Assembly (NCBI GenBank): GCA_965219575.1 | Contig: OZ244779.1 | Span: 1,800,352 to 1,864,351 of the forward strand | Direction of reading: 5' to 3' | From: Candidatus Oxydemutatoraceae bacterium | GTDB lineage: Bacteria; Pseudomonadota; Gammaproteobacteria; Poriferisulfidales; Oxydemutatoraceae | Length of the DNA: 64,000 nt | Shown here: positions 10,980-47,045 of the stretch, piece after piece | Position numbering within the stretch: position 1 is the first letter of the stretch | Layout: every line of letters starts with the position of its first letter | The notes under the pieces: model-generated | What the model was told of the DNA's origin: nothing | The model's input: only the letters and a program-made list of their open reading frames with translations | Database searches by the model: none | Made by a program: the position numbers and the translations under genes

Positions 10980-13264
10980 TAATTAAGATACAAAGTATAA
11001 ATAACAATCTGTGTTGTTTCACCACCATTCTCAACCTCAATGGTGATTGCAGTTATCCCGTCGGTGTTTAACGAAATCATACTACTCTCATCACCACTAT
11101 CTATAGCTATACCTCTAGCTTCTTCATCAGCCCTAATATAAACCTTGGCATCGGGATTTACTGTTATTGGTCTGAACCGGATTGTGCTTGTACTATGAAC
11201 TACCGTTCCTCTGTAGCTCGGCAATATCACATCAAAATCAGGCAATAAATCGCCTTCCACTAATTGCAATTCACCCAAACCATACCTCAGTGCAGGCGAC
11301 AACAAACTACCACAGACAGGTAAATCTGTTGCAGTATCACTTACACTACGACATTCGCTAATATCCGTGTTAGGATTATCCGTATATTTGAGCACCGGGT
11401 ACTGGCTATCAGTGCCGAAATCCCAATTCGTGTTACTCCATTCGTAATAGGGTTTGCCGGGGTCTGTGCCTTGTGCACTTTCTGCTTTCAATTCCACCGT
11501 GGTTTTACTCGTGCCACCGTCACTTATCTTTATTCCGCTGGTATTTATATCCCAGTAGCTACTCGTGATAGTACCATCATTATTCCGACCGATTAAACCG
11601 CCTACACCATTACTCCCTTCAACAGAACCCGTCGCATAGCTGTTTGCGATGGCACCACTAAAATAATTCTGACCGACTAAACCGCCTGCATTGCCGTCCC
11701 CTGAAACAGAACCCATCGCATAGCTGTTCGTGATGGTACCGCCGTTCTCACCGACTAAACCGCCTACATTAAAACGATCCCCAATAACAGAACCCGTCGC
11801 ATAGCTGTTCGTGATATTGCCGCCCCTATTACCACCGACCAAACCGCCTACATAGTCATCTCCTGAAACAAAACCCGTCGCATAGCTGTTCGTGATATTG
11901 CCGGCACTATTATCACCGACTAAACCGCCTACACGACCACTCCCTGAAACAGAACTCGTCGCATAGCTGTTCACGATGGTGCCGCCGTTCTCACCGACTA
12001 AACCGCCGAAACCGAAGATATCGAAGAAACCGCGAAGATCACTACTCCCTGAAACAGAACCTGTCGCATAGCTGTTTGTGATGGTGGCACCAAAACGATT
12101 CCGGCCGACTAAACCGCCAAAACCGGCTAAACGACCGAAACCGCCGAAATCGAAGAAATCGCGAAGATCACCACTCCCTGAAACAGAACCCGTCGCATAG
12201 CTGTTCACGATGGTGCCGCCGTTCTCACCGACTAAACCGCCGAAACCGACTAAACCGCCGAAACCGACTAAACCGCCGAAATCGCGAAGATTACCACTCC
12301 CTGAAACAGAACCCGTCGCATAGCTGTTCGTGATAGTGCCACCGTCATTCCTACCGACTAAACCGCCGAAACCGACTAAACCGCCGAAATCGAAGAAATC
12401 GCGAAGATTACCACTCCCTGAAACAGAACCCGTCGCATAGCTGTTCGTGATAGTGCCACCGTCATTCCTACCGACTAAACCGCCTACACTGCTACTCCCT
12501 AAAACAGAACCCGCCGCATAGCTGTTCGTGATTGTGCCACCGTCATTCCTACCGACTAAACCGCCTACACTGCTACTCCCTAAAACAGAACCCGTCGCAT
12601 AGCTGTTCGTGATTGTGCCGCCATTCTCACCGACTAAACCGCCTACCCCATTGCTAAAACCTCCGATTATATTTACATTTAGTAAGCCCAAATTAGCGAT
12701 TTCAGCACCACCGTCCGTACGACCAAACAAGCCTATTTGACCTGTGCCACCTCTGGCAATCGTAAGATTAGAAATCGTAAAATCGTTGCCTTCAAACCAA
12801 CCGCTGAAAGCATTAGAAAAGTCCCCGATCGGCTGCCAACCTGCTCCCGTAGTCCATATAACCTTGTTAGCTGTTGAACTATAGCTGTCATCGTCGTTAA
12901 AATCTAAGTTTCTTTTCAATTCATAGCCTCTGCAGATATCATTAGGGCAGCCTTCAGTAATCCCCGTCGCCCCGGCGGTTGCTTTATAGCTGGTGCCGTC
13001 CGGTTGAAAGCGGATTGCATTTAAGGTTTCCAAATCGTTGATATCTATCAGCCCGTTGCCATCGGCATCTACGACGGTATTAGTTTGAGCAACTATGTTC
13101 GTGCTGAATAGTGCGAGTAGAATAATCAACAAGAGGGTTTTCATGGAAATTATATATATTGTAAATACTGGGATTGTACAGCCAATATGCACACATGGGA
13201 CTGTTGAAAAAGTACCGCTCTGCACGAATTCAACCGCTTTTCGCCACATAATTATCCAACCCAC
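10979..13264 (-). CDS. Giant adhesin, 5' (N-terminal) portion. It has a Sec signal peptide, a dockerin-like segment, GLUG-type repeats and a cadherin-like beta-sandwich domain. It is terminated by a stop codon created at the IS junction.
   Basis: The N-terminus MKTLLLIILLALFSTNIVAQT looks like a signal peptide. Its architecture matches the modules of the 285-10178 fragment. The stop codon TAG spans the target duplication and the first base of the IS inverted repeat. Confidence 0.85.
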   Translation of the reverse strand: MGWIIMWRKAVEFVQSGTFSTVPCVHIGCTIPVFTIYIISMKTLLLIILLALFSTNIVAQTNTVVDADGNGLIDINDLETLNAIRFQPDGTSYKATAGATGITEGCPNDICRGYELKRNLDFNDDDSYSSTANKVIWTTGAGWQPIGDFSNAFSGWFEGNDFTISNLTIARGGTGQIGLFGRTDGGAEIANLGLLNVNIIGGFSNGVGGLVGENGGTITNSYATGSVLGSSSVGGLVGRNDGGTITNSYAAGSVLGSSSVGGLVGRNDGGTITNSYATGSVSGSGNLRDFFDFGGLVGFGGLVGRNDGGTITNSYATGSVSGSGNLRDFGGLVGFGGLVGFGGLVGENGGTIVNSYATGSVSGSGDLRDFFDFGGFGRLAGFGGLVGRNRFGATITNSYATGSVSGSSDLRGFFDIFGFGGLVGENGGTIVNSYATSSVSGSGRVGGLVGDNSAGNITNSYATGFVSGDDYVGGLVGGNRGGNITNSYATGSVIGDRFNVGGLVGENGGTITNSYAMGSVSGDGNAGGLVGQNYFSGAIANSYATGSVEGSNGVGGLIGRNNDGTITSSYWDINTSGIKISDGGTSKTTVELKAESAQGTDPGKPYYEWSNTNWDFGTDSQYPVLKYTDNPNTDISECRSVSDTATDLPVCGSLLSPALRYGLGELQLVEGDLLPDFDVILPSYRGTVVHSTSTIRFRPITVNPDAKVYIRADEEARGIAIDSGDESSMISLNTDGITAITIEVENGGETTQIVIYTLYLN
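12229..12282. repeat. In-frame 18-bp microsatellite, unit accgactaaaccgccgaa, three copies here encoding (GGLVGF)n. Shorter tracts of one or two copies lie nearby.
   Basis: Direct tandem copies are seen in the DNA. The protein reads DFGGLVGFGGLVGFGGLVGENGG. Confidence 0.75.
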
Positions 13265-13269
13265 CTGTA

Positions 13270-13560
13270 GGGGCAGTATAAAGCCGCCGATTGAGCCGGT
13301 AGGTCAATCGGCAACTCTGATGTCTGCCCTTAAGTACCGTCCAGAATAACCGTAACCGCTTGTGCCATTTGGTTTTGGTTTCCATAAATCGGGTGGATGA
13401 ATGTATAAATCGTGCCGACCAACGCGTTGCGGGCGGACATGTCGTAGGGGCGGACTTACATGTCCGCCTGCCCCTACAGTCCATAAAATACTTTTTCAAC
13501 AGCCCCACATACCATAATAGAAAATATCTTACGGCTTTAATACTAGTTATTGTTTCTGAG
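13270..13560. repeat. Mosaic intergenic repeat array made of modules A (CCGATTGAGCCAGTAGGTCAATCGG palindrome), B (GTAGGGGCGGAC...GTCCGCCC palindrome), C (catccaatttatggaaaccaaaacc...gcgcaagcggtt) and D (ggctgttgaaaaagt).
   Basis: The same modules recur at nine or more other loci in the window. Confidence 0.8.
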
Positions 13561-18459: not shown

Positions 18460-18800
18460 GGCTGTGCAGACATGCCGGGGCTGTTGAAAAATACCGTTTG
18501 GCACGGATAATGTTTTTATACGCAGTTTATACACAAAATTTAAGTTTACCTACCGTAGGGGCAGACTAACATGTCTGCCCGTAACGAATTGCTCCTGCAT
18601 GATTTATACATTTATTCATCCAATTTATGGAAACCAAAACCAAATGGCGCAAGCGGTTGAGGCTGTGCAGAACGGCAATTTAGGGCGGACATACAAGTCC
18701 GCCCTACAGTTGGTTTGCGTAATTAGATGGCGCAAGCGGTTGCAGTTGTGCAAAAACAGTACTTTTTCAACAGTCCCACGCTACAACTACCTCGTCGGGG
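18460..18800. repeat. Mosaic intergenic repeat array (modules D, B, C, B-like, C, D)
   Basis: ctgttgaaaaatacc, gtaggggcagactaacatgtctgccc and catccaatttatggaaaccaaaaccaaatggcgcaagcggtt were read directly. Confidence 0.75.
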
Positions 18801-20575: not shown

Positions 20576-20585
20576 TGAAGCAATA

Positions 20586-20745
20586 CCATAGAACCGCCGA
20601 TTGAGCCAGTAGGTCAATCGGCAATACAAAGCCGCCGATTGAGCCAGTAGGTCAATCGGCAATACAAAGCCGCCGATTGAGCCAGTAGGTCAATCGGCAA
20701 TTATGATGTGCGCCCGATAGGTTGATCGGCGTTACATTGTTCAGG
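20586..20745. repeat. Tandem array of three perfect 38-bp module-A palindromic units plus one degenerate unit (REP-like)
   Basis: acaaagccgccgattgagccagtaggtcaatcggcaat appears three times, then gcgcccgataggttgatcggcg. Confidence 0.85.
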
Positions 20746-21074: not shown

Positions 21075-21076
21075 TT

Positions 21077-27324: not shown

Positions 27325-28661
27325 ATAGACATACGAGATATCTGAGTTTTTTATATCTCTGCACGGTGTTGTGCATGATTTCAAGCGGCGCACACGCAGC
27401 AACGCTGCTTGGTCTGCAAATCAGTGAAGTAGATCAAAGCACACACATCGTCTTAAACTTTGACAACAGTCCGCAATACAAAACTATCATTCTTGCAGAC
27501 CCACCTCGTTTCGTAGTCGACCTGTTTGACACGGTACCCGCCGACCCGGACCTTGCATCGGGCATCAGTAATGCTTTCGTCAAAAACATACGCACCGCCT
27601 CCAAAGAGGGCGGAAACTATAGAGTTGTTTTTGATTTGGTTGCCGGCATACGACAATCGTCGGTACAGATGCTCTCTTTGGATGGCAAACAGATCTCTTT
27701 CAAATTGAATTACCCGACATGGTTTAGCATTCAACCTCGAACTCCCGAACAAATCGGCAAACCGTTGACTAAACCGACCACCGTAAAACAAATAGACAAA
27801 GCGCGGTTGCGCAACGCATTGGTCATGATAGATCCTGGACACGGCGGAAAAGACCCCGGTGCAATCGGAGTGTCCGGAACTCGAGAAAAAAATATCGTAA
27901 TGTCAACCGCGCGTATTTTAGAAAGCATGCTCAACAGCGAATACGGCATCGAGGCAATGTTGACACGCAGCGACGATCGGTTCATGGATTTGCGCAAAAG
28001 ACTGGAGGCGGCGCGCACCCATCAAGCCGACCTGTTCATCTCGCTACACGCCGACGCCTTCCATCACAGTAATGTAAGGGGCGCATCGGTTTATGTGTTA
28101 TCCGATAAAGGTGCGTCGAGCGAAGCCGCACGCATCCTCGCACAGCGCGAGAACGAGGCGGTTATCGGTGGGATCAATATCGACGACAAAGATAACGCCC
28201 TCGCCTCCATACTCGTGGATTTATCGCAAACCGCTTCGATGGGACGAGCCAACGTGCTCGGCAACTATATCCTTGCCGCCTTCGGGAAGAATGTAAGAAG
28301 TAGAAATATAGAATCGGCAGGCTTCCTCGTTCTAAAATCCCCCGATGTGCCGTCGGTACTGGTAGAACTCGGCTACCTCACCAATCCCGAAGAGGAAAAA
28401 CTACTTAAACAACCCGGTTATCAAACACAACTGGCGAGAAATATCATGGCCGGCATCAAACGTTACTTAAACGACTACGCTACCGCCGATATGATCCTTG
28501 CCCATACCGCAATACGCGACTACACCGTCGCCCGAGGCGATACCCTCTACGGCATCGCCGAACGTTTCAACAGCTCGGTCAATCGCATCAAACAACTCTC
28601 GGGCCTCGGCACCGACACCATTCGCATCGGACAGACGCTGAAAGTACCGGTGGGCAGATAG
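27321..28661 (+). CDS. amiC: N-acetylmuramoyl-L-alanine amidase of the AmiB/AmiC family, with an N-terminal AMIN domain and a C-terminal LysM domain
   Basis: Amidase_3 core (IDPGHGGKDPGA, LHADA). The C-terminal LysM reads YTVARGDTLYGIAERF. A signal peptide is present. The start is probably TTG. Confidence 0.8.
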   Translation: MNRHTRYLSFLYLCTVLCMISSGAHAATLLGLQISEVDQSTHIVLNFDNSPQYKTIILADPPRFVVDLFDTVPADPDLASGISNAFVKNIRTASKEGGNYRVVFDLVAGIRQSSVQMLSLDGKQISFKLNYPTWFSIQPRTPEQIGKPLTKPTTVKQIDKARLRNALVMIDPGHGGKDPGAIGVSGTREKNIVMSTARILESMLNSEYGIEAMLTRSDDRFMDLRKRLEAARTHQADLFISLHADAFHHSNVRGASVYVLSDKGASSEAARILAQRENEAVIGGINIDDKDNALASILVDLSQTASMGRANVLGNYILAAFGKNVRSRNIESAGFLVLKSPDVPSVLVELGYLTNPEEEKLLKQPGYQTQLARNIMAGIKRYLNDYATADMILAHTAIRDYTVARGDTLYGIAERFNSSVNRIKQLSGLGTDTIRIGQTLKVPVGR

Positions 28662-28827
28662 CGGACTATCGTACCCACCTACAGTACCGTACAAGTCGGA
28701 CAAACTATGGATATAAAGGCGTTGCATTCGTATCGGTCACCGACAGACTTAAGGTGATGTATAATATCTATTCTCTCTAATAAGTAATACTATCAGGATT
28801 TCTAAAAACTCTATAAAATAAGGCACG

Positions 28828-30135
28828 ATGAAAGATAAGAACGTTGACTTAAAAGACCACCGATCGAATAAAGAAATAGAACTTCCTATTATGGATGCGA
28901 CGAGTGGTGCGGATATTATCGATATCCGTTCTATCTATCAGCAGTTGGGCTATTTCACTTTTGACCCGGGTTTCGTTTCAACCGCAAGTTGTGAGAGCAA
29001 GATCACTTATATAGACGGCGATGCCGGGCTACTCTATTATCGCGGTTATCCGATAGAACAGCTGGCGGAAAAAAGTAATTATTCCGAGGTGTGTTATTTA
29101 CTTTTATACGGTGAATTGCCGAGTACCGATCGGTTGCGAAGTTTTAACGCAAGTCTGACCGAACACGCAAACTTGGACATGGAAAAAATAACCGCACTAC
29201 TCGACGGTTTTGACAGGCACGGACATCCGATGGCGATGTTGATGGCAGCACTCTGCCACCTCGCTGCGATGTATCACGACGAATTAGCGATTCATGACGA
29301 AACATACCGAGAGCAATCCGCTCACCGTTTAATTGCCAAAGTGCCGGCGATTGCTGCGTGCATACTTCGTTATAAACAAGGCAAGACATTCAAAAAACCG
29401 AATAAAGATTTAGCTTATATCGAAAGATTCTTGGATATGGTGTTCGACGATTTCAATCTACAATCGCCGTTATATCAAAAATACGCAGCGGCGATGGACC
29501 TGATATTATTGCTACATGCAGACCACGAGCAAAATGCTTCTACTTCGACGGTACGCTTGAGCGGTAGTACGGAAACAAATCCTTATGCAGCCTTGGTGGC
29601 AGGCATCGCTTCGTTGTGGGGACCGGCACACGGCGGGGCCAACGAGGCGGTGATAGACATGCTGGAGAATATAGTCGAATCGGGACAGCCGTTGCAATCT
29701 TATATCGATAGAGCCAAAGATAAAAACAGTCATTTTCGGCTAATGGGCTTCGGGCATCGTATCTATAAAAATTACGACCCGCGTGCAAAAATTATAAGTA
29801 CTATCTGTCACGAGTTGCTATCCGAACTCAACAATGACTATACCGACAAACCGCTGCTAGACACCGCCAAAGAACTAGAAAACATCGCACTAAAAGACGA
29901 CTATTTCATCTCGCGCAAACTTTATCCGAATGTAGATTTTTATTCCGGAATCATCCTCAATGCGATGGGCTTGCCGCGCGATATGTACACCGTCATCTTC
30001 GCCCTCGCCCGCACTATCGGTTGGGTTAGCCACTGGAATGAAATGCTCGGCGATCCGCTGACTCGCATCGGCAGACCGAGACAGCTTTATACCGGCCATA
30101 CGCGCAGAGATTATATCGCTGTATCCGACAGATAA
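28828..30135 (+). CDS. gltA: Citrate synthase (type II)
   Basis: FDPGFVSTASCESKITYIDGD and GFGHRIYKNYDPRA are signature motifs. Confidence 0.9.
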   Translation: MKDKNVDLKDHRSNKEIELPIMDATSGADIIDIRSIYQQLGYFTFDPGFVSTASCESKITYIDGDAGLLYYRGYPIEQLAEKSNYSEVCYLLLYGELPSTDRLRSFNASLTEHANLDMEKITALLDGFDRHGHPMAMLMAALCHLAAMYHDELAIHDETYREQSAHRLIAKVPAIAACILRYKQGKTFKKPNKDLAYIERFLDMVFDDFNLQSPLYQKYAAAMDLILLLHADHEQNASTSTVRLSGSTETNPYAALVAGIASLWGPAHGGANEAVIDMLENIVESGQPLQSYIDRAKDKNSHFRLMGFGHRIYKNYDPRAKIISTICHELLSELNNDYTDKPLLDTAKELENIALKDDYFISRKLYPNVDFYSGIILNAMGLPRDMYTVIFALARTIGWVSHWNEMLGDPLTRIGRPRQLYTGHTRRDYIAVSDR

Positions 30136-30139
30136 CGAC

Positions 30140-30850
30140 AACCACCGATTGAGCTTGTAGGGGCGGACTTATATGTCCGCCCGAACACGCGTCGTGTTAG
30201 CATAAATAAAATCGTACGCCATCCAATTCATGAAACCAAAACCATCCCGGCGTAAGCGGTTGAGCTTGTGCAGAACGGTATCGTTTTGGGCAGACACACA
30301 GGTCTGCCCCTACGACTCGGTGGTTATCGTAAATTCAATGGCGCAAGCGGTTGGATTTTTGCGATGCCAATACTTTTTCAACAGCCCCACATAAGACTGT
30401 TGAAAAAGTATTTTCATAGAGTGGTAGGGGCGGACTTATATGTCCGCCCGAAACGTATCATGTTTGCGCGATTAACGCGTTCACCCATTAATATTATGGA
30501 AACCATTATTTGTTGGCGCAGGTGGTTGGTGTCGTGCAGAACAGCACTTAAGGGCAGACATCAGAGTTGCCGATTGACCTACCGGCTCAATCGGCGGCTT
30601 TATACTGCCCCTACAACTCAGTGGTTATCGTAAATTTAATGGCGCAAGCGGTTGGATTTTTGCGATGCCAATACTTTTTCAACAGCACCATCGTATCTGC
30701 GCTGTTTTATACATTCATCCATCCAATTTATGGAAACCATAATCGGGTGGCGCAAAGCAGCTGGTGTTGCGCGTAACAGTACTTAAGGGTAGACATCAGA
30801 ATTGCCGATTGACCTACCGACTCAATCGGCGGTTTTATCCTGCCTCTACG
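30140..30850. repeat. Large mosaic intergenic repeat array. It holds multiple copies of modules A, B, C and D.
   Basis: gtaggggcggacttatatgtccgccc occurs twice. The ccgattgacctaccggctcaatcgg palindrome occurs twice. The catccaat...gcgcaagcggtt module occurs about four times. The tactttttcaacagcccc / ctgttgaaaaagta inverted pair is also present. Confidence 0.8.
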
Positions 30851-31936
30851 CTAGGTAAACACATTATTCTTGCAAAGATATTCGCTCATTCTCGCTTGAC
30901 ATTCTGCTAACCGCTTTCTTGAGAGCTCACAGTAAGTGGAATCTATATCAATACCTAGATAATGGCAATCCTCTTCCATAGCGGCAATAGCCGTTGTGCC
31001 GCTCCCGCTATACGGGTCCAGAACGATGCCGTTCTTCGGTGAAAGCAGTTTTATAATTTCTTTGATAATTGAAAGAGGAAATATAGCACTGTGTTTATTT
31101 CCGGGAATTGATTCAACCGACGAAATAATCACATCCTTTTTCATTTTCTTTCCATGTATTTTAATAATAGTGTAACCGTTCTTCTCGATCTGGCTTTTAC
31201 GCCCCCCTTCTTGCCCTCCGAAAGCCTCTGCGTGTATTCCGCGAATCTTCATACGAAATCCCTCTATTTTAGATTCTTTTACTTCTTCAGTAACCTCGTC
31301 GAGAGATTTATGCGCTTTTCTTTTCAGCTCCGAAGATAAATCCGAATTTTCAATCAATGTCCTATATCTTTCTCCTAATCTATTTGAAGGCTTATGCCGT
31401 TTTCTTTCGTCTACCTCGTTAAAAAATTTATCGGGGTTGTAATAATATTTTGTACCTTTTACAAAATGAAAAAATGGTTCCGTGCTACTTACCAGACGCC
31501 GCCCGAATTGCCTCGGTGTGGGGTTTCTCTTTACCCAAGTTATTTCATTGACAAGCTTCACACTATGGTCATTAGTTGCTTTTATGGCAAATCTATACGG
31601 CACAAGTAAAAGCGAACCATTCAGATATTTATCACCGATGTTATAAACGATATTTCCCGAAGGTTTTACTACTCTGACAATTTCCGAAAATACTTCAAGT
31701 AGAGAGTCAATATAAGACTCAACCGTTTTTTCGTGACCGGTCCCGATTCCCATTCCGTTATAATTTCGTTGCATATAGTACGGTGGGGATGTCACCACTA
31801 AATCAATACTATTATCCGGTAACTGCTTCAGCAAAAAAGCGGCATCTCCACACTGTATTGAATCTATTAGGCAATTCATCCGGCTTTTATGTGAAAGACC
31901 CTTTTGGGATTTTTCTAATTCTATAAAAGAACTCAT
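30851..31936 (-). CDS. Beta-class amino-DNA methyltransferase (N6-adenine or N4-cytosine). It appears to be an orphan.
   Basis: Motif IV VTSPPYY lies near the N-terminus. Motif I VLDPYSGSGTT lies near the C-terminus. GC content is low. No restriction endonuclease ORF is adjacent. Confidence 0.8.
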   Translation of the reverse strand: MSSFIELEKSQKGLSHKSRMNCLIDSIQCGDAAFLLKQLPDNSIDLVVTSPPYYMQRNYNGMGIGTGHEKTVESYIDSLLEVFSEIVRVVKPSGNIVYNIGDKYLNGSLLLVPYRFAIKATNDHSVKLVNEITWVKRNPTPRQFGRRLVSSTEPFFHFVKGTKYYYNPDKFFNEVDERKRHKPSNRLGERYRTLIENSDLSSELKRKAHKSLDEVTEEVKESKIEGFRMKIRGIHAEAFGGQEGGRKSQIEKNGYTIIKIHGKKMKKDVIISSVESIPGNKHSAIFPLSIIKEIIKLLSPKNGIVLDPYSGSGTTAIAAMEEDCHYLGIDIDSTYCELSRKRLAECQARMSEYLCKNNVFT

Positions 31937-32004
31937 GTCTCACCCTTGTTGGATATATTTATCCATCGTTTCTTTACCATGTTTATAAGTTTCAATAATT
32001 TAGA

Positions 32005-32160
32005 CACCATTTTCTCCCATTGATTAAAAATTGTAAATAGTTCTTGTGCACACAATCTCGCAATATTAGCCGATATCAAAGCCCAAGAATTCATTATCCG
32101 ATGAACGGTTGTATTTGAGTATATAAAAGGTGCTCGACGGTTGGATTATGCAGTAATACG
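32005..32160 (-). promoter_or_regulatory. Upstream element E, copy A. It lies 5' of the methyltransferase gene.
   Basis: About 85% identical over about 145 nt to 53495-53640. It contains a gtgcac-centred palindrome. Confidence 0.5.
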
Positions 32161-32164
32161 CTAT

Positions 32165-32235
32165 GCGACTGTTGAACCACAAAACCGCCGATTGAGCCAG
32201 TAGGTCAATCGGTGTCACATTGTGCAGAACCTTAG
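32165..32235. repeat. Module-A REP-like palindrome plus the cattgtgcagaacc tail
   Basis: aaaaccgccgattgagccagtaggtcaatcggtgtcacattgtgcagaacc. Confidence 0.75.
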
Positions 32236-32408
32236 TACCAATGTGTGGGACGGACAAGCTAGGGCTTGTCCTCACAGGTATAGAGCGGTAGAGGTTTGCA
32301 TATCCGACACTGTACATGACGCAATGATTGTTTAATTTATCGTTGCACTTAATTTTAAGTTAAAGTATATAATTGCATGCACACAAAGAGAGCTAAAAAT
32401 CTGTTCAA

Positions 32409-35240
32409 ATGAGAAAGCAACTGAAAATAACAATCTCGGCACTATGTTTAGTCATTTTTACAATAGCAGAAACCAATGCTTTTATGATGACAAACTCTTA
32501 TCCATCTAGCAAAACATTAGCTGCGCAGTCGGTAAATAATACCGGAATGAATACCTACGAGGCTATAATGCTTCAACAGGTACAGCAAAATTTCAATCCT
32601 GTAGGGATTTGGCAACTTACAGCAGCCGAAGCTACAGGATTTCAATGTTCCGTTGATGTTGATATCGATATTAATGATCTTCTTGACTTTTCTCAAGTAA
32701 ACACAGAGCTTGATGCTGTGGTGACATCTAATAGATTAAGTATTGTAAATAGACAAACATCAGCAGTATATACGGAAATCCGCAGACATCCGCCCAATCG
32801 ATATATACTCGAAAACAGGGGAAGCTTCTCTCAATTTGTGAATGGCCTCTTAGTTCGAGTGGTAGGAAGGGATGCAGTAGACCTTACTCTTATCTCTGAT
32901 GAGGAAGTAGTAGGAACAGGTGTTGTAACCGCAACCGTAACTGCAGAAGCGATAAACTTTGAAGTTCGTTGCTCTGCTACTTACACGATAGCGGCAAAAA
33001 AAATTAGTTCCCCCCGTTTATCTAAGCTTTCTTTATCTACGGGAACACTGCATCCGAACTTTGACGGCACAGTCTTTAGGTATTTTGCAGCCGTTCCCAA
33101 TAATACTCGACAAATTACGCTGAGATTGAATGCCGAGGAGAGTAACAACACGATCACCGTCAACGGCAATCGGATAACCGGAACTGCAACTATTCCCCTA
33201 GGTTCTAATACCGATACGATTACCGTAGGTATACGGACGGCAGACGGTAATAGAACAAATACTTACATCGTTGATATCATACGGCTTGCACAACGAAATT
33301 TTAATCCCGTAGGAACTTGGGAAACCACTGCGAGAGAAAATATAAACCTTCAATGTCCCTTGCTTCCCAATTTAAGTTTAAGCCGTGACGATTTTGACCC
33401 GATAGGCAGAGAGTACGATATAGTCATGACATCGGGCGGGTTAAACCTCATAGATAGAGTGGATTCGGAAACGTCTACCGAAATTGGCAGAAATATACCG
33501 AATCGTTATAGCTTGCAATACATTGAGAGAGAGTCTATATCCGAACAAGGTGTCACATTGACAATAGAAGGAACGAGCACTCTAGATTTTATCCTGATCT
33601 CCGATGAGGAAGCGATAGTTGCGGTTGTCAGGGACATAAAAGTGACGAGCCTCGAAAATATTCCCTGCCTTACATCGTATACGGTAAGCGCAAAAAAAGC
33701 CGCAATATCTACTGCTATCCTAAAAGATATTTCATTATCGGCAAGCACGCTTAACTCAATCTTCACCGGCTTAGTCAGGAATTATTCTGCAACCGTTGAC
33801 AGTGGTGTCGGCCAACTTGGGATAACGATTGAAACTTCCCATATAAATCAATCGGTCACGATAAACGGTACCACACTATCCAGAGGCTTAAATCGTAGTC
33901 AATTGATAAGTAGTACGGTACCGCTAAGCGTGGGTAACAATACGATCGTTATAGGAGTGACATCGGCGGACGGCATATTGACATCAAGCTACACTTTGCA
34001 AGTTATCCGTCGAAGCCCTGCTTTGATCGGATTGTCTTTATCTCCCGGAACGCTCAACCCCGGCTTTAGTAGAGAGAGATTAAGATATGCAGCAACCGTA
34101 GAGAGTGATATAGAACGAATTACACTAACTCCTACAGCCGATAGTGCCGGACATAGGGTCATCATTACCGCCAACGGAAGATCTATAAACGGAAATTCAG
34201 TTCCTTTGAATGTAGGAGACAATACCATAGCTATCTCGGTCACTACGCGAGACAGTCAAGCAACGACAAGATACACCTTAACTGTAAGGCGATTAGAACC
34301 CTGCTTGACCGACCTCTTCTTATCATCGGGATCACTCAGCCCAACCTTCGGTAATCCCAGTCAATGCAGTAATGCAGCGATACGATATGCGGCAACCGTA
34401 GAGAGTGATATAGAACGAATCACATTAACCCCTACAGCCAATAGTGCCACACATACAATCGCCATTACTGCCAACGGAAATTCTATAACCGGAAATACAG
34501 TTCCTCTGAATGTGGGAGACAATACTATAGCTATTTCAGTCACTACGCGAGACAGTCGAGCAACGACAAGATATGTCGTAACTGTAAGGCGATTAGAGCC
34601 CTGCTTGACCGACCTCTCTCTATCGTCGGGATCACTCAGCCCGACCTTCATAACATGCTCGGATGAAACGGTAAATTACCGAGCAATCGTGAGAAACAAT
34701 GTAAGCCAAATTGAAATAACGGCTACGGCAAATAGTATCGCACATACGATTACTTTCAACAGTAATCAAAATAGTACGGTACCGCTAAGCGTAGGCGACA
34801 ATACGATTACCGTATCGGTAACAACGGCAGACGGTATGGCTAGAAAAGATTACAACTTAGTTATAAGACGTTTAAGTACGGCAACTTTAACCGGACTAAC
34901 AGTGGAAGTAAATTCGCAAATGCTAGAACTAAACCCTAACTTCAGCCTTATCAACTTAGACTACAGAATAAATGTAGAAAATACTATGACCCTTGTTACT
35001 ATACAACCTACGGCCTCGGCCGGTCGCATCATCAGGGTACGCTATACACCGGACGATGGCACCGCAATTGACCGTCTCGTCTCGAGTGGCGATACGGTTA
35101 CCATAACGCCATTGTTCTATGGTAAGAATAATGTCTACATCGATGTTATGCACAACGGTGCTATGGAGAGATATTCACTAGCCGTGATTATAGGTGTTAT
35201 TCTGCGTATAAAATTATTTTTAGAAGGTGCCTTGCAATAA
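32409..35240 (+). CDS. Secreted 943-aa protein with a signal peptide. It has a duplicated N-terminal module and six or more cadherin-like beta-sandwich domains. It ends with the C-terminal motif RIKLFLEGALQ.
   Basis: MRKQLKITISALCLVIFTIAETNA is a signal peptide. Repeated units of the form LSxLSLSxGTLxPxF...RYxA.V...I.VGDNTI.I.VT..DG...YTL.V.R are present. Two of the units are near-identical. Confidence 0.8.
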   Translation: MRKQLKITISALCLVIFTIAETNAFMMTNSYPSSKTLAAQSVNNTGMNTYEAIMLQQVQQNFNPVGIWQLTAAEATGFQCSVDVDIDINDLLDFSQVNTELDAVVTSNRLSIVNRQTSAVYTEIRRHPPNRYILENRGSFSQFVNGLLVRVVGRDAVDLTLISDEEVVGTGVVTATVTAEAINFEVRCSATYTIAAKKISSPRLSKLSLSTGTLHPNFDGTVFRYFAAVPNNTRQITLRLNAEESNNTITVNGNRITGTATIPLGSNTDTITVGIRTADGNRTNTYIVDIIRLAQRNFNPVGTWETTARENINLQCPLLPNLSLSRDDFDPIGREYDIVMTSGGLNLIDRVDSETSTEIGRNIPNRYSLQYIERESISEQGVTLTIEGTSTLDFILISDEEAIVAVVRDIKVTSLENIPCLTSYTVSAKKAAISTAILKDISLSASTLNSIFTGLVRNYSATVDSGVGQLGITIETSHINQSVTINGTTLSRGLNRSQLISSTVPLSVGNNTIVIGVTSADGILTSSYTLQVIRRSPALIGLSLSPGTLNPGFSRERLRYAATVESDIERITLTPTADSAGHRVIITANGRSINGNSVPLNVGDNTIAISVTTRDSQATTRYTLTVRRLEPCLTDLFLSSGSLSPTFGNPSQCSNAAIRYAATVESDIERITLTPTANSATHTIAITANGNSITGNTVPLNVGDNTIAISVTTRDSRATTRYVVTVRRLEPCLTDLSLSSGSLSPTFITCSDETVNYRAIVRNNVSQIEITATANSIAHTITFNSNQNSTVPLSVGDNTITVSVTTADGMARKDYNLVIRRLSTATLTGLTVEVNSQMLELNPNFSLINLDYRINVENTMTLVTIQPTASAGRIIRVRYTPDDGTAIDRLVSSGDTVTITPLFYGKNNVYIDVMHNGAMERYSLAVIIGVILRIKLFLEGALQ

Positions 35241-35351: not shown

Positions 35352-36515
35352 ATGAAGTATATTCCTCGAATCCTCTTAAAATCCCTTAAATCAATGTCTA
35401 AACAGTACCCTGTTGTAGCTGTGCTAGGTCCCAGACAGTCCGGAAAAACAACAATAACCCAAAAAGCCTTTCCTTCAAAACATTATATTTCTTTAGAGGA
35501 CTTAGACAACAGACAGTTTGCGCAACAAGATCCTAGAGGTTTCTTGGATAGCTATAAAAAAGGAGCTATTATTGATGAAGCCCAAAGATGCCCCGATTTG
35601 CTCTCCTATATTCAAACACATGTTGATCAAAACAAAAAAAAAGGACAATTTATTATCACCGGCTCTAATCAATTCTTACTAGAAGAAAAAATCACTCAAT
35701 CTCTAGCCGGACGGGTTTCCTTATTAAGGCTTCTTCCCTTATCCCTTCAGGAGCTAAAACAAGCTAAAAAAACAACTCCCTTAAACAAAATGATTTTTAA
35801 GGGATTTTACCCTCAACTCCATGTAGAAAATATTGAAATCGGTTCATTTTTTAATAATTACATAGAAACCTATGTAAGCAAGGATGTCCGCTTGATAAAA
35901 AATATAAGCAATTTATCTTCGTTTAACACTTTTATTAAACTATGCGCTAACCGAGCCGGACAACTGCTTAACTTGCAGTCTTTAGCAAACGACTGTGGCA
36001 TCACCCAAAATACGGTCAAGTCATGGATTTCTATTCTAGAGAGTAGCTTTATCTTAAAAAGAATATACCCCTATTATAAAAACTTTAATAAAAGGCTCGT
36101 AAAATCTCCAAAGATATACTTTTATGACACCGGTTTGCTTTGCCGATTATTATCTGTCAAAAAAGCGCAGGATCTAGCTTTTCATGCTCTAAAAGGTTTT
36201 ATTTTTGAAAACTTGATTTTCTCGGAGATAGAAAAATATTTTTTTAATCAAGGACAGAAAGCTCCACTTTATTTTTGGAGAGATAAAACAGGTCATGAAA
36301 TTGATTTTTTAATTGACAGTGACCATTTAAAGATAATAGAGGTTAAATCCGCTCAAACTTTTTCAACGGATTTCTTAAAGAACATCACTTATTTTTCTAA
36401 AATCAATCCAACTAAAAAAAGAAACTACTTAATTTATGCCGGAAAAGAAAAGCAAATTAGAGGCGATTGCTCTATTTTGCCTTGCTGGGACATCGATAAA
36501 ATTTTAGGTACTTAA
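35352..36515 (+). CDS. AAA-family ATPase with a C-terminal DUF4143 domain
   Basis: The Walker A reads VLGPRQSGKTT and the Walker B reads IIDEAQ. The C-terminal region is DUF4143-like. The gene is AT-rich. Confidence 0.75.
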   Translation: MKYIPRILLKSLKSMSKQYPVVAVLGPRQSGKTTITQKAFPSKHYISLEDLDNRQFAQQDPRGFLDSYKKGAIIDEAQRCPDLLSYIQTHVDQNKKKGQFIITGSNQFLLEEKITQSLAGRVSLLRLLPLSLQELKQAKKTTPLNKMIFKGFYPQLHVENIEIGSFFNNYIETYVSKDVRLIKNISNLSSFNTFIKLCANRAGQLLNLQSLANDCGITQNTVKSWISILESSFILKRIYPYYKNFNKRLVKSPKIYFYDTGLLCRLLSVKKAQDLAFHALKGFIFENLIFSEIEKYFFNQGQKAPLYFWRDKTGHEIDFLIDSDHLKIIEVKSAQTFSTDFLKNITYFSKINPTKKRNYLIYAGKEKQIRGDCSILPCWDIDKILGT

Positions 36516-36519
36516 GGCT

Positions 36520-36800
36520 GTTGAAAAAGTGCGGGCATCGCACATTAGAACCGCCGATTGAGCCGGTAGGTCAACCGGCAATTCTGATGTCTATCCTTAA
36601 GTACCGTCATGCGCAATACCAGCCGCCCTGTGCCAACAAATTATGGTTTCCATAGATTAAATGGATGAATGTGTAAATCGTGCAGGCGCAACGCGTTACG
36701 GGCAGAACAGAGCCGCCGATTGAGCCAGTAGGTCAATCGGCAATTTTGATGTCCGCCCCTACCACTCTATGAAATACTTTTTCAACAGCCCCGCGACACG
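36520..36800. repeat. Mosaic intergenic repeat array (modules D, A, C, A, B, D)
   Basis: ggctgttgaaaaagtgcgggcatcgcac. ccgccgattgagccggtaggtcaaccggcaat occurs twice. A C module is present. Confidence 0.8.
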
Positions 36801-36913
36801 ACCACCCCGTCAGGCTGCACCGACATTATATTGGGGGAGGATCAATTTCGTAGTTTATATCGTGGTTTTTGCATGTTTAGAAAAGCATGTCAGCCCTCTT
36901 TACAGGATTACGA

Positions 36914-38053: not shown

Positions 38054-38102
38054 CGCTATTTACCCTTTACCTTAGCTTAAACGAGGTTTTTTAATATCGT
38101 CG

Positions 38103-39587: not shown

Positions 39588-40129
39588 CTTTGTACTCGTG
39601 CAGATGTGCAGGGGCTGTTGAAAAAGTATCCACGAACTGTAGGAACGGTACATTCCTCTCCTTCGGAGGGGTGGCAGGTGCAGCCTAACGGGGTGGTCTT
39701 AAAAATGAGGGTGTAATCTTCTTCAACGCCACATCTGTAAGGCACCCGGAAACCTACAAATTTACAAAAAAAATGAAATGGTTAGCCGAGGATAAGTATA
39801 ATATCCCGTTTTTCTGGATTGAGCATCAAACCTATGAGGATACGGGCAGATATGGATGGAAGCTATATTCTTTTAGATCATAAACAGACTAGTTAGGCGC
39901 AGATACGTCAGAACCCTGTTCAAGGCTTGATCTAATGAGGAGATTCTCAATCGGTAAACGCAGGATAAAATGCTACACAATGACAAGTTTAGGTTGGACT
40001 CCGGCTGGAGTGTCATGGTGAGTTCAGAGCGGGAGATTTCCTGCCTCTTGAATAAACTGACGACCGAATCTATGACAGCTTTTTGGTAATCCAGAATCGT
40101 CTTCAAAATGGAGTTTCATGTTATGCACT

Positions 40130-41864: not shown

Positions 41865-42060
41865 TTATATATCGGGCTGTTGAAAAAGTGCGGCATCGTA
41901 CGAATCCAATCACTTGCGCCATTTGGTTTTGGTTTCCATAAATTGGATGGATGAATGTATAAATCGTGTAGGCACAACGCGTTACGGGCGGACATGTTAG
42001 TCCGCCCCTACAGGTGGGTTGGATAATTATGCGGCGCAAGCGGTTACGGTTTTGCAGAAC
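41865..42060. repeat. Repeat modules D, C, B and C, located immediately 5' of the IS3-family transposase fragment
   Basis: ggctgttgaaaaagtgcggcatcgtacgaatc...ggtttccataaattggatggatgaatgtataaatcgtg...gggcggacatgttagtccgcccctac. Confidence 0.75.
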
Positions 42061-42098
42061 AGTATTTTTTCAACAGTCCCATATTAATTCACTTAAAA

Positions 42099-42290
42099 AT
42101 GAGATTGTTGAAAAAGTATCTACGAACCGTAAAAGCAGGCTTCAACGGTTGCCTGAACCAATTCTGGTTTCGTTCAATAAAAGAGGCAAGAGAGATTATA
42201 GAAAACTGGCGCACAGATTATAATGAAGTCCGTCCGCACAGCGCACTAAGGTATCAACCCCCGAGTGTACTTGCGGAGGCAACAGCATGA
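42099..42290 (+). pseudogene. C-terminal fragment of an IS3-family (rve integrase core) transposase
   Basis: FNGCLNQFWFRSIKEAREIIENWRTDYNEVRPHSALRYQPP is the classic C-terminus of IS3 OrfB. Confidence 0.75.
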
Positions 42291-42395
42291 AAACTGGCTT
42301 TGCAGGTAATCCTAAAAATGGAAGAACGTCACGATTATGGTTTCCATGGATTAAATGGGTAAATGTATCAATCGTTCACAAAATGCAAAATCGGA
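42290..42395. repeat. Module-C-like repeat abutting the 3' end of the transposase fragment
   Basis: gattatggtttccatggattaaatgggtaaatgtatcaatcgttcac resembles the C modules elsewhere in the window. Confidence 0.55.
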
Positions 42396-43179: not shown

Positions 43180-43450
43180 TGCCACAGTAAACTGCCGATT
43201 GAGCCAGTAGGTCAATAGGCGTGACATTGTGCAGAACCTTAGCGTGCTAGGTAGCTCATACATTACAAAATACAATATCCGCCGGTTGAGCCAGTAGGTC
43301 AATCGGCGTGACATTGTGCAGAACTTTAGGGGCTGCTGAAAAAGTGCGGACATCGCACAAATCCAACCGCTATGCGCCATTTGATTTTGGTTTCCATAAA
43401 TTGGATGAATGAATAAAATAGTGCAGATACGCAGCGACCACCCCGTCAGG
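43180..43450. repeat. Mosaic repeat array (A, A, D, C)
   Basis: aactgccgattgagccagtaggtcaataggcgtgacattgtgcagaacc occurs twice. ggggctgctgaaaaagtgcggacatcgcac...ggtttccataaattggatgaatg follows. Confidence 0.8.
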
Positions 43451-43511
43451 CTAATGCCTGCCACTCGTCCGGTGGTGGGGAATGGGCCGACACCCTACTT
43501 GTAATGTCGGG

Positions 43512-46649: not shown

Positions 46650-47045
46650 GTGTTATTGTAGCTTATATGGGGCTGTTGAAAAAGTGCCGGCATTGCACAA
46701 AACTTGTGCAGACACGACGGGGCTGTTGAAAAAGTATCGTCAGCGTGCAACCGTGTAACCGCTTGCGTCGTGAATTTATAATAACCACCAAGCCGTAGGG
46801 GCAGACCTGTGTGTCTGCCCTTAAGTGCCGTTCTGCACGACACCAACCGCTTGCGCCAACAAATAATGGTTTCCATAAATTGGGTGGATGAATGTATAAA
46901 TCATGCAGGCGCAACGCGTTACGGGTAGAACAGAGCCGCCGATTGAGCCAGTAGGTCAATCGGCAATTTAATTTTAGTCCGCCCCTACCACTCTGTAAAA
47001 TACTTTTTCAACAGCCCCACGCCACAACCACCGATTGCGCTTGCG
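46650..47045. repeat. Mosaic repeat array (D, D, B, C, A, B, D)
   Basis: ggggctgttgaaaaagtgccggcattgcac appears twice. Also present are gtaggggcagacctgtgtgtctgccc, ggtttccataaattgggtggatgaatgtataaatc and ccgccgattgagccagtaggtcaatcggcaat. Confidence 0.8.

What the first reader, a model, noticed from the sequence alone, without database searches (positions are those of the whole stretch)
30140..30850. Mosaic intergenic repeat arrays built from four recurring modules fill most intergenic gaps
Four modules recur in shuffled order and orientation. Module A is a REP-like palindrome CCGATTGAGCCAGTAGGTCAATCGG. Module B is a GC-rich palindrome GTAGGGGCGGAC-N-GTCCGCCC. Module C is about 70 nt, catccaatttatggaaaccaaaaccaaatggcgcaagcggtt...gtgcagaacgg. 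Module D is ggctgttgaaaaagt, often as an inverted pair. They occur at 13270-13560, 18460-18800, 20586-20745, 30140-30850, 32165-32235, 36520-36800, 39600-39660, 41865-42395, 43180-43450 and 46650-47045. They lie preferentially at the 3' ends of genes and around accessory genes. Module B hairpins directly follow the stop codons of fhcC and gltA, so they may act as terminators. This density of composite repeats is unusual. It is probably lineage-specific, like Correia, REP or BIME elements.
Basis: seen in the sequence. Interest (0 to 1): 0.6.

Follow-up and report, generated by a model that had tools for sequence, protein, structure and literature searches.

The report
Nested REP and MITE intergenic repeats
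The intergenic "mosaic" is real: it is small parasitic DNA elements stacked inside one another (REP hairpins of the kind moved by a RAYT transposase, plus a miniature inverted-repeat element that lands in the REP hairpin loops) in an uncultured sponge-associated bacterium, Candidatus Porisulfidus, so it is a new example of known kinds of element, not a new kind of system.

Summary
Observation confirmed. All four modules recur far above chance at every listed site. They fill about 2.9 kb, or 40% of the window's intergenic DNA.

Interpretation partly right. The repeats are lineage-specific and REP/BIME-like, but the modules are not equal, shuffled units.
- Module B (GTAG + 8-bp GC-rich hairpin) is the canonical REP. 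In related genomes, 4 of 4 RAYT (REP-associated tyrosine transposase) genes are flanked by inverted B plus the C/t arms.
- Module C is the spacer arm between two inverted REPs.
- Module D is the 18-nt terminal inverted repeat of a MITE family with a 4-bp duplication (ACAT/ATGT/ATAT). It inserts preferentially into REP hairpin loops. Some copies enclose REP doublets.
- Module A is a 25-nt hairpin. It occurs inside one MITE subfamily, inside REP loops and as a 38-nt tandem array.
- A fifth module, E, was missed.

The focal 30140-30850 region is three adjacent copies of one composite unit. Empty and filled orthologous sites show the elements moved after the lineages split.

The terminator idea is not supported: B has no T-tract, and terminator-like sites occur at the shuffled rate. 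No transposase for D was found. An ISAzo13 candidate was tested and rejected.

Host: Candidatus Porisulfidus (sponge-associated).

The parts
30145..30154 (+). Left arm of module A (CCGATTGAGC), fused at its loop GTAG to the following REP. The right arm of A is missing.
   Evidence: The same junction, with the A right arm retained, occurs in L027 and L087.
30157..30182 (+). REP (module B): GTAG + GGGCGGAC / TTATAT / GTCCGCCC. First REP of unit 1.
   Evidence: (-10.1 kcal/mol, z -3.9).
30183..30287 (.). Spacer between the two REPs (module C; core 30219-30261). It is made of two different REP-adjacent arm types joined at CCATCCAATTYATG.
   Evidence: The same arm with the t motif flanks RAYT genes.
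30288..30313 (-). Inverted REP (GGGCAGAC/ACACAG/GTCTGCCC + CTAC). Second REP of unit 1.
30314..30388 (.). Right arm of unit 1 with the t motif (GGCGCAAGCGGTT), ending in the D right terminal inverted repeat (30371-30388, TACTTTTTCAACAGCCCC).
30389..30392 (.). ACAT 4-mer shared between the end of unit 1 and the start of unit 2. This is the preferred target/duplication of D elements.
   Evidence: class 'abuts another D end'.
30393..30689 (+). Unit 2, a complete D-bounded composite: D left TIR 30393-30410; REP 30424-30449; module C core 30485-30527; inverted REP carrying module A in its loop 30552-30614 (A at 30570-30594, minus strand); D right TIR 30672-30689.
30691..30849 (+). Unit 3, truncated, with no D ends and no first REP: module C core 30719-30762; inverted REP with nested A 30787-30849 (A at 30805-30829). 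It abuts the stop of the methyltransferase gene (30851).
13193..13510 (+). D-bounded composite element (TIRs 13197-13214 and 13489-13506) with a perfect 4-bp duplication ACAT/ACAT (13193-13196, 13507-13510). Contains a REP with nested A (about 13267-13345), module C and a REP at 13444-13477.
18477..18777 (+). D-bounded composite element downstream of fhcC, with a REP doublet (18555-18580 and 18682-18707) around module C.
20580..20745 (+). Tandem array of module A: three perfect 25-mers at 20597, 20635 and 20673 (38-nt period), then a degenerate copy with the tail CGTTACATTGTTCAGGAC.
32165..32235 (+). Solo fragment: degenerate D end (GCGACTGTTGAAC) + module A (32188-32212) + tail (..ACATTGTGCAGAACC). 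This matches the left part of the D-A-tail-E type MITE.
36514..36830 (+). D-bounded composite (TIRs 36514-36531 and 36775-36792) abutting the stop codon of the upstream gene. A at 36554-36578 and at 36716-36740 (inside an inverted REP). Module E fragment outside at 36801-36815.
39611..39697 (+). Half of a D-E MITE: D TIR 39611-39628 and module E on the minus strand 39651-39697.
   Evidence: (93-95% identical to copies in other genomes).
41869..42084 (+). 208-bp D-bounded element (TIRs 41873-41890 and 42063-42080) with duplication ATAT/ATAT. Interior is module C plus one REP (GGGCGGAC/ATGTTA/GTCCGCCCCTAC). The TIRs pair in a foldback.
42103..42375 (+). Debris: solo D end (42103-42117), C-terminal remnant of an IS3-family transposase (42141-42290, Pfam rve_3), and a module C fragment (42334-42375).
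43182..43484 (+). Two A+tail units (A at 43195-43219 and 43282-43306), then a D left TIR (43329-43346) with a partial module C and module E (43437-43484).
46664..47032 (+). Solo D end (46669-46686), followed by a D-bounded composite (TIRs 46719-46736 and 47001-47018) with a REP at 46795-46820, module C, and an inverted REP with nested A (A at 46939-46963).

Best explanation
The arrays are piles of small non-autonomous mobile elements that insert into, and recombine with, one another. The host is a lineage of Candidatus Porisulfidus.

Layer 1 is a REP/RAYT system.
- Module B is a REP: the conserved tetranucleotide GTAG followed by an 8-bp GC-rich hairpin.
- REPs usually occur as inverted pairs about 105 nt apart.
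- The same REP+arm inverted repeats flank the RAYT (Y1/HUH) transposase gene in related genomes.
- No RAYT gene lies in this window. By analogy with E. coli TnpA-REP, the RAYT is inferred to act in trans on single-stranded REP DNA.

Layer 2 is a MITE family.
- Its 18-nt terminal inverted repeats are module D (GGGGCTGTTGAAAAAGTA).
- It duplicates 4 bp (ACAT/ATGT/ATAT) and lands preferentially in the 6-nt REP loop (GGGAGGGC ATGT|TA GCCCTCCC).
- Subfamilies carry E alone, or A+tail+E, or a whole REP doublet. The last type is the one in 30140-30850.

Because each insertion brings new REP loops, insertion begets insertion and arrays grow at the same intergenic spots.

Module A is a stable 25-nt hairpin with GTAG in its loop. 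It is found inside one MITE subfamily, inside REP loops and as a tandem array. How it spreads is unknown.

Shown: repetition, structure, nesting, duplications, empty versus filled sites, and the RAYT-REP association.
Inferred: that the RAYT mobilises B, and that a DDE-type transposase (not found) mobilises D.
For: Repetition is far above chance.

Lineage:
- The window is 82-88% identical to three Porisulfidus MAG genomes.
- The A 25-mer gave 83 of 84 hit blocks in those genomes, spread from 16 kb to 2.8 Mb.

B is a REP:
- 357 GTAG-GGG sites were counted over the window plus loci. Of these, 204 have an intact 8-bp hairpin with a 6-nt loop.
- Stem variants GGGCGGAT (79), GGGAGGGC (56), GGGCGGAC (47) and GGGCAGAC (12) each occur with their own complement.
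- Hairpins are more stable than shuffles.
- GTAG 5' of the palindrome is the defining E. coli REP feature (PMC3333891).

RAYT:
- The L015 ORF carries HUH and Tyr motifs. It scores 58 bits on NCBIfam REP_Tyr_transpos (E 7.5e-16) and 29 bits on Pfam Y1_Tnp, above its cutoff of 23.
- Many homologues are named RayT.
- In 4 of 4 RAYT loci, in different genomic contexts, the order is GTAG-REP, t, RAYT, t(-), REP-CTAC.

D is a MITE end:
- 49 D..D units of 133-484 bp were found.
- 17 of 49 have identical flanking 4-mers (ACAT x10, ATGT x6, ATAT x1), against 6.7 under shuffled pairing.
- Of 236 D ends, 112 abut ATGT, ACAT or ATAT, and 67 sit in recognisable REP loops.
- 52 REPs are split by a D element.
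- Both relative orientations occur.
- An intact and a D-interrupted copy of the same REP lie in one tandem duplication in L006.

Mobility after speciation:
- Window 50479-50487 is empty. The orthologous site holds 294 bp in L047 and 1149 bp in L006.
- L057 is empty where L015 holds a 1519-bp composite.
- The gltA- and fhcC-downstream arrays exist in another species but are not collinear.

REP loops are landing pads, as known elsewhere. 3 of 3 IS110-family copies sit at the same point of the REP loop. This agrees with PMC1525189.
Against: - No RAYT gene and no D-specific transposase lie in the window. No transposase bounded by D repeats was found in about 0.7 Mb of sampled related sequence.
- The RAYT scores below NCBIfam's equivalog cutoff (58 against 80) and has no sequence match in the PDB.
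- The RAYT-REP link is by association only.
- The window's REP doublets have two different arms. They fold as two separate hairpins, not as one long REPIN hairpin.
- The A-in-B and some D-in-B configurations share identical junctions. Many copies may therefore descend from a few composite ancestors rather than independent insertions.
- One empty/filled site shows an unexplained 14-nt duplication instead of 4 bp.
Confidence: 0.75

Rival explanations
1. The modules are host-selected cis-acting elements (transcription terminators, mRNA 3' stabilisers, small RNA genes or protein-binding sites). On this reading their abundance reflects function, not mobility.
For: - The hairpins are stable.
- All 4 convergent gaps of at least 100 bp carry arrays.
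- B starts 22 nt after the gltA stop.
- Short modules (A+tail, E) are 91-95% identical across genomes whose genes are 82-88% identical.
- From the literature (own knowledge, not read here), REPs in E. coli affect mRNA stability.
Against: - No T-run follows B, and terminator-like sites occur at the shuffle rate with none at B.
- No Rfam family matches at gathering score.
- Elements occur in both orientations and also in divergent (promoter-side) gaps.
- Presence differs between orthologous sites.
- Target duplications and terminal inverted repeats are signatures of transposition.
- Function as a by-product is not excluded.
Confidence: 0.1
2. There is only one mobile entity, the D-bounded MITE. 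On this reading B, C, A and E are merely its internal sequence, and solo copies are decay fragments. The RAYT next to B is then incidental, for example a RAYT gene that landed in such an element.
For: - Most window copies of B, C and A lie between D ends.
- In L086 the whole RAYT unit is itself bounded by D repeats.
- D-bounded REP-doublet units carry their own 4-bp duplications.
Against: - RAYT loci L087 and L088 have REP+arm flanks and tandem REP arrays with no D nearby.
- REPs are the target of D insertion and exist intact in large numbers outside D units: 204 intact against 52 split.
- B has the canonical GTAG-hairpin anatomy recognised by RAYTs.
- 4 of 4 RAYTs share the same symmetric flanks in different contexts.
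Confidence: 0.12
3. The arrays grow mainly by homologous recombination, gene conversion and tandem duplication between pre-existing repeats, with little ongoing transposition.
For: - Tandem arrays exist: A x3 at 20597-20697, REP+arm arrays with a 134-bp period in L088, and a duplicated unit in L006.
- Hybrid flanks, where one side is ACAT/ATGT and the other unrelated, are common.
- Most composite units are only 72-85% identical between genomes.
- An array coincides with a synteny break after gltA.
Against: Recombination alone does not create precise 4-bp duplications in REP loops in both orientations. It also does not fill a 7-nt gene junction that is empty in another lineage. This process probably acts alongside transposition rather than instead of it.
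Confidence: 0.2

Closest known systems
REP/BIME elements with their RAYT (TnpA-REP) transposase in E. coli (REPtron; Ton-Hoang et al. 2012, PMC3333891; Nunvar et al. 2010, PMC2817692)
   Same: - A hairpin of about 26 nt preceded by the conserved GTAG.
- REP and inverted REP in pairs separated by linkers, and tandem clusters.
- A Y1/HUH transposase gene flanked on both sides by inverted REPs.
- Hundreds of intergenic copies are likely.
   Different: - Sequences are unrelated.
- Stems here are mostly perfect 8-bp duplexes, whereas the E. coli enzyme needs a stem mismatch.
- Linkers are long (about 105 nt) and of two arm types.
- At least two RAYT copies occur in one genome (L015, L088).
- Activity is untested.
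REPINs (REP doublets forming hairpins) of Pseudomonas fluorescens (Bertels & Rainey 2011, PMC3116915)
   Same: - Two inverted REPs with a spacer form the repeated unit.
- They are associated with a RAYT.
- A symmetric doublet in L049 folds into one long hairpin (z -7.1).
   Different: - The window's doublets have non-complementary arms and fold as two separate hairpins.
- Many doublets are enclosed by foreign terminal inverted repeats (module D), which REPINs lack.
Insertion sequences that target REP loops: IS1397/ISKpn1/ISPsy8 (IS3 family) and IS621/ISPpu9/ISPpu10/ISPa11 (IS110 family) (Tobes & Pareja 2006, PMC1525189)
   Same: - Insertion at a fixed point of the REP palindrome with a short duplication.
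- Here an IS110-family IS does exactly this in 3 of 3 copies.
- The D elements do it in at least 52 cases.
   Different: - The D elements are non-autonomous (133-310 bp) with no identified transposase.
- Some carry REP doublets as cargo, so they re-create their own target.
Bacterial MITEs such as Neisseria Correia elements
   Same: - Short, intergenic, high copy number.
- Terminal inverted repeats, target duplication and a foldback structure.
   Different: - Correia elements duplicate TA and have their own 26-bp repeats (own knowledge).
- Here the duplication is 4 bp (AYRT), the termini are GGGGCTGTTGAAAAAGTA, and the interior is heterogeneous.

Membership tests
REP (repetitive extragenic palindrome) | 30-40-nt imperfect palindrome with a conserved GTAG tetranucleotide 5' of the stem (PMC3333891) | tested here: met
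   Module B is GTAG + 8-bp stem + 6-nt loop + 8-bp stem. 204 intact copies were counted in the window plus loci, 7 of them in the window. 47 of the 53 perfect palindromes found's GTAGGG register end in CTAC.
REP (repetitive extragenic palindrome) | High copy number, extragenic, lineage-specific | tested here: met
   All window copies are intergenic. Copies are spread around three related chromosomes. The genome-wide total was not obtainable.
REP (repetitive extragenic palindrome) | Mismatch or bulge in the stem, required by E. coli TnpA-REP for binding | tested here: not met
   Most stems are perfect 8-bp duplexes. This feature is known only for the E. coli enzyme, so it may not be general.
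REP-RAYT system (REPtron) | Y1/HUH transposase of the RAYT clade flanked by inverted REPs | tested here: met
   4 of 4 RAYT loci in related genomes (L015, L086, L087, L088) meet this. No RAYT gene lies in the window. The RAYT score is below the NCBIfam equivalog cutoff.
REP-RAYT system (REPtron) | The RAYT binds and cleaves its cognate REP | not testable with these tools
   Needs biochemistry.
REPIN | Two inverted REPs that together form one long hairpin and replicate as a unit | tested here: inconclusive
   Window doublets fold as two separate hairpins. A symmetric doublet in L049 folds as one hairpin. Replication as a unit without D ends was not shown.
BIME | Mosaic of REPs in alternating orientation with defined linker motifs, often in tandem | tested here: met
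   REP and inverted REP pairs with two arm types. Tandem REP+arm arrays occur in L088.
MITE | Short element with terminal inverted repeats and a target site duplication | tested here: met
   - 18-nt repeats.
- 17 of 49 units with identical 4-mers against 6.7 expected.
- Target ATGT/ACAT/ATAT at 112 of 236 ends.
- Foldback structure.
MITE | A related autonomous element with the same termini encoding a transposase | tested here: not met
   None was found in about 0.7 Mb. The ISAzo13-family IS inside one copy has different ends and a TAA duplication.
Correia element (Neisseria) | Specific 26-bp terminal repeats and TA duplication (own knowledge) | tested here: not met
   Termini and the 4-bp AYRT duplication differ.
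Intrinsic terminator | GC-rich hairpin followed directly by a T-run | tested here: not met
   B is followed by GAACACG, GAAACG, GTAACG or TTAAG. The scan found 20 sites against 20.0 expected, none at B.
Any Rfam RNA family | Match at the gathering score | tested here: not met
   0 matches in the whole window.

The most novel reading that the evidence does not exclude
The D-bounded units that enclose REP doublets may not be mobilised by an ordinary DDE transposase, since none was found. The autonomous form might instead be the RAYT unit that is itself bounded by D repeats, as in L086. That would be a hybrid element in which a Y1/HUH enzyme, or the RAYT together with a host factor, moves a TIR-bounded element with a 4-bp duplication into REP loops. 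Such a transposition mode has not been described for this enzyme family.
Probability: 0.08. Interest if true: 0.7.

Novelty: new member of a known kind. Interest (0 to 1): 0.38.

Why it matters
- It gives a worked anatomy of the intergenic DNA of an uncultured sponge-associated lineage. About 40% of the window's intergenic DNA is mobile-element debris.
- It identifies which motif is the REP and links it to a RAYT.
- It documents a MITE family that uses REP loops as landing pads and sometimes carries REPs as cargo. This explains how mosaic arrays can grow by self-nesting.
- For annotation, it warns that small ORFs called across these arrays are spurious. Examples are the 83-aa ORF at 32066-32317 and the 48-aa ORF series in L088.
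- Arrays mark sites of turnover and a synteny break.
- It does not reveal a new kind of system.

Tried and rejected
1. ISAzo13-family IS as parent of the D MITEs. In L051 the transposase (NCBIfam 576 bits) lies between a D left end and a D right end, and the MITEs align to the flanking parts. Four further copies (L089-L092) show the IS has its own ends (GGAGTCGTTAG.../...AAACGATTAC) and a TAA duplication. It is therefore simply inserted inside a MITE. Rejected.
2. IS3-family remnant at 42141-42290 as parent. It is adjacent to a D end and a C fragment, but the termini do not match. Rejected.
3. Long D..D intervals containing ORFs. These are ordinary genes (MetK, TsaD, a methyltransferase and others), not transposases.
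4. CRISPR-like reading of the A array. The spacers are identical. Rejected.
5. Rfam. Nothing found.
6. Intrinsic terminators. Not enriched.
7. Viral origin. A is absent from viral contigs. The three hits to the D 18-mer are isolated, with no other module in those loci, so I read them as chance matches.
8. PDB sequence match for the RAYT. None found.
9. Duplication length. Parses with a 2- or 3-bp duplication and TG..CA termini were considered. Near-matching flanks GTGT/GTAT and ATGG/AAGG favour 4 bp, but the shorter parses are not fully excluded.
Full report

Yes. The over-representation of each module in the window is as follows.
- The 25-mer module A occurs 12 times with up to 3 mismatches, against 0.00 expected.
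- The 15-mer D occurs 18 times, against 0.07 expected.
- The 12-mer head of B occurs 9 times, against 0.18 expected.
- The core of C occurs 7 times.

Using a hand-made gene map, the repeats cover about 2930 bp. That is 4.6% of the window and 40% of its roughly 7.3 kb of intergenic DNA. They occupy 10 of the 16 gaps of at least 100 bp. Rfam finds no known RNA family anywhere in the window.

**2. Where does the window come from?**

Of these, 83 come from three "Candidatus Porisulfidus" MAG chromosomes of 2.2-2.9 Mb, at positions spread from 16 kb to 2.8 Mb. The name occurs in the paper on a carnivorous sponge genome and its associated metagenome sequences.

Coding regions of the window are 82-88% identical to those genomes. 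The window is therefore a further lineage of the same genus. A 99.96%-identical metagenome contig (L001) also exists.

**3. Anatomy: module B is a REP and C is its arm**

B reads GTAG + GGGCGGAC + 6-nt loop + GTCCGCCC. This is the E. coli REP layout, a palindrome with a conserved 5' GTAG (PMC3333891).

Over the window plus loci I counted 357 GTAG-GGG sites.
- 204 carry an intact hairpin.
- 52 are split by a D element in the loop.
- 42 carry module A in the loop.
- 59 are something else.

Stem variants GGGCGGAT, GGGAGGGC, GGGCGGAC and GGGCAGAC each occur with their own complementary arm. As single-stranded DNA the hairpins are more stable than shuffles: B is -10.1 kcal/mol (z -3.9) and the GGGAGGGC variant is -9.6 kcal/mol (z -4.1).

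REPs usually come as an inverted pair about 105 nt apart. One of these arm types carries the motif AACCGCTTGCGCCA, which I call 't'.

**4. The RAYT link**

A filled site in L015 contains an ORF with an HUH motif (MPNHIHFII) and a tyrosine motif (YWDSIIRNE). It matches NCBIfam "REP-associated tyrosine transposase" (E 7.5e-16, 58 bits, below the equivalog cutoff of 80). It also matches Pfam Y1_Tnp (29 bits, above the cutoff of 23). Many of its database homologues are named "REP element-mobilizing transposase RayT".

I fetched three further close relatives in their contigs. In all four loci, which have different neighbouring genes, the order is GTAG-REP, t, RAYT, t(-), REP-CTAC. This is the REPtron arrangement.

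No RAYT gene lies in the window. That the RAYT mobilises B is an inference from association and from the E. coli biochemistry.

**5. Module D is the end of a MITE**

D occurs as inverted pairs 133-484 bp apart, 49 pairs in total.

Taking the repeat as GGGGCTGTTGAAAAAGTA, 17 of the 49 units have identical 4-mers on both sides. These are ACAT x10, ATGT x6 and ATAT x1. Only 6.7 are expected when left and right flanks are re-paired at random. ACAT is never paired with ATGT.

Of 236 D ends, 112 abut ATGT, ACAT or ATAT, and 67 lie in a recognisable REP loop. The typical picture is GGGAGGGC ATGT[GGGG..CCCC]ATGT TA GCCCTCCC, whereas the intact loop is ATGTTA. Both orientations of the element relative to the REP occur.

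In L006, an intact and an interrupted copy of the same REP lie in adjacent duplicated units.

The interiors are heterogeneous.
- E alone (133 bp).
- A + tail + E (about 145-190 bp).
- A REP doublet with module C (200-310 bp).

The last type is what fills the window's arrays. Its units also carry duplications, for example 13193-13510 with ACAT/ACAT and 41869-42084 with ATAT/ATAT. The repeats pair in a foldback.

**6. The focal region 30140-30850**

It parses as three adjacent copies of one composite unit.
- Unit 1 (30157-30388): REP, module C, inverted REP, arm, D right end. It is preceded by a left arm of A fused to the REP at GTAG (30145-30154).
- A shared ACAT lies at 30389-30392.
- Unit 2 (30393-30689) is complete: D, REP, C, inverted REP with A nested in its loop, arm, D.
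- Unit 3 (30691-30849) is truncated: C and an inverted REP with nested A. It ends 1 nt before the stop of the methyltransferase gene.

"Shuffled order and orientation" is therefore nesting plus juxtaposition.

**7. Module A**

A is a 9-bp-stem hairpin with GTAG in its loop (-11.5 kcal/mol, z -6.7). A variant with a different but still complementary stem, CCGTTTGTT..ACAAACGG, occupies the same position with the same flanks.

A occurs in four settings.
1. After the D left end, followed by the tail CGTGACATTGTGCAGAAC and E, in one MITE subfamily.
2. Inside REP loops with constant junctions (GGGCAGA-ATAAAGCCG-A-CAAT..GAT-GTCYGCCC). There are 42 such cases, so this composite probably spread as a unit.
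3. As a three-copy tandem array with a 38-nt period at 20597-20697.
4. As the recipient of a REP inserted just 3' of its loop GTAG (L027, L087; a partial case at window 30145).

How A itself spreads is not resolved.

**8. Evidence of mobility and turnover**

- The 7-nt junction between two genes at window 50479-50487 is empty. The orthologous site holds a 294-bp composite in L047 and a 1149-bp composite in L006.
- L057 is empty where L015 has a 1519-bp composite flanked by GTGAATTG.
- Arrays downstream of gltA and fhcC exist in another species too, but they are not collinear with the window's arrays.
- The gltA array coincides with a break of synteny relative to that genome.
- Most composite units are 72-85% identical between genomes. 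The short A+tail and E pieces are 91-95% identical.

**9. Other elements use the same landing pads**

[quoted passage not shown] This has been described for IS621, ISPpu9/10 and ISPa11 (PMC1525189).

An ISAzo13-family IS sits inside a D-type MITE in L051.

**10. A wrong turn, corrected**

Because that ISAzo13 transposase lies between a D left end and a D right end, I first took it for the autonomous parent of the D MITEs. Four further copies show it has its own ends and a 3-bp TAA duplication. This matches the value published for the family (PMC10045372). Its flanks are otherwise unrelated to D. The IS is a passenger inside a MITE, and the transposase that moves D remains unidentified.

**11. 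Function**

The terminator idea fails.
- B is followed by GAACACG, GAAACG, GTAACG or TTAAG, never a T-run.
- Terminator-like sites in 28000-47500 number 20 against 20.0 in shuffles, and none is at a B hairpin.
- B begins 22 nt after the gltA stop, but about 100 nt after the fhcC stop.

The arrays lie in 4/4 convergent, 2/3 divergent and 4/9 tandem gaps of at least 100 bp. The 3'-end bias is therefore partial. It is what one expects if insertions in promoters are selected against. Effects on mRNA stability cannot be tested here.

**12. Comparison and verdict**

Each layer is a new member of a known kind.
- A REP/BIME-RAYT system.
- A TIR/TSD MITE family.
- IS elements that target REP loops.

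The somewhat unusual points are these.
- The REP-loop-targeting element is a MITE without a known partner.
- One of its subfamilies carries REP doublets and so regenerates its own target.
- A 25-mer hairpin is kept identical across lineages whose genes differ by 12-18%.

Limits:
- The related loci were selected for containing A.
- The genome scan was truncated.
- All mechanistic steps beyond sequence anatomy are inferred.

Noticed in passing
window 285-10178 (-) and 10979-13264 (-): A giant 3297-aa ORF and a neighbouring 761-aa ORF have extensive internal repeats (GGLVGENxGxITNSYATGSV motifs). Relatives occur in L008, L053 and L079.
   Followed up: no
window 42141-42290 (+): C-terminal remnant (about 49 aa, Pfam rve_3, E 5e-15) of an IS3-family transposase. 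It lies between a solo D end and a module C fragment.
   Followed up: partly
L051 about 1528-2821; L089-L092 about 1140-2445: An ISAzo13-family IS of about 1.3 kb with ends GGAGTCGTTAG.../...AAACGATTAC and a TAA duplication. The copy in L051 is nested inside a D-type MITE.
   Followed up: yes
L004 about 5270-6610, L027 about 4900-6400, L082 about 2480-3820: An IS110-family IS inserted at the identical point of the REP loop (GGGAGGGC|..|ATGTTAGCCCTCCC) in 3 of 3 copies.
   Followed up: yes
L088 497-2570: Tandem array of REP + arm with a 134-bp period next to a truncated RAYT. The source's gene caller annotated it as a series of 48-aa ORFs, which are probably spurious.
   Followed up: partly
window 41873-42080 versus L012 6087-6296: A D-bounded element is 99.5% identical (210 nt) between the window and a genome whose genes are only about 82-88% identical, and it lies at a different locus. 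This could be recent exchange between co-occurring lineages or strong constraint. Unexplained.
   Followed up: no
L006 3380-4560 and L047 2980-3420 versus window 50470-50495: The composite inserted at this gene junction is flanked by a duplication of about 14 nt (CATCTCNAAYTTAA) rather than the usual 4 bp. The duplication preserves the upstream stop and the downstream start. Unexplained.
   Followed up: partly
window 32000-32144 versus 53484-53632; 20954-21032 versus 53371-53449; 20303-20356 versus 21066-21118 (inverted): Another repeat family of about 150 nt (83% identical), unrelated to modules A-E, sits upstream of or between small ORFs.
   Followed up: no
window 34081-34349 versus 34381-34649: A 270-bp tandem duplication (88% identical) lies inside the cadherin-like gene 32409-35240.
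   Followed up: no
L050 3980-5790: An unrelated IS of about 1.8 kb (ends ACCCTAATTCC../..AAATTAGGGT, 492-aa ORF) is present in one of two 97-98% identical duplicated regions of OZ244052.
   Followed up: no
window 32066-32317 (-): An 83-aa ORF, also called as a gene on contig L001, overlaps the D-like/A/tail fragment at 32165-32235 and is probably not a real gene.
   Followed up: no
window 30135-53626 versus L029: In CBDAVG010000002, gltA is followed after about 600 bp of repeats by the orthologue of window 53626-54688. The window therefore differs by a 23-kb rearrangement whose edge is the gltA array. The interval holds accessory-looking genes (DNA methyltransferase, GmrSD-like, AAA_14/DUF4143).
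   Followed up: partly
L060 (JAPORV010000162, 2120 bp, labelled Aestuariivita MAG): This is the only non-Porisulfidus hit to module A. Only its repeat part (about 970-1130) matches the other loci. It may be a mis-binned contig.
   Followed up: partly
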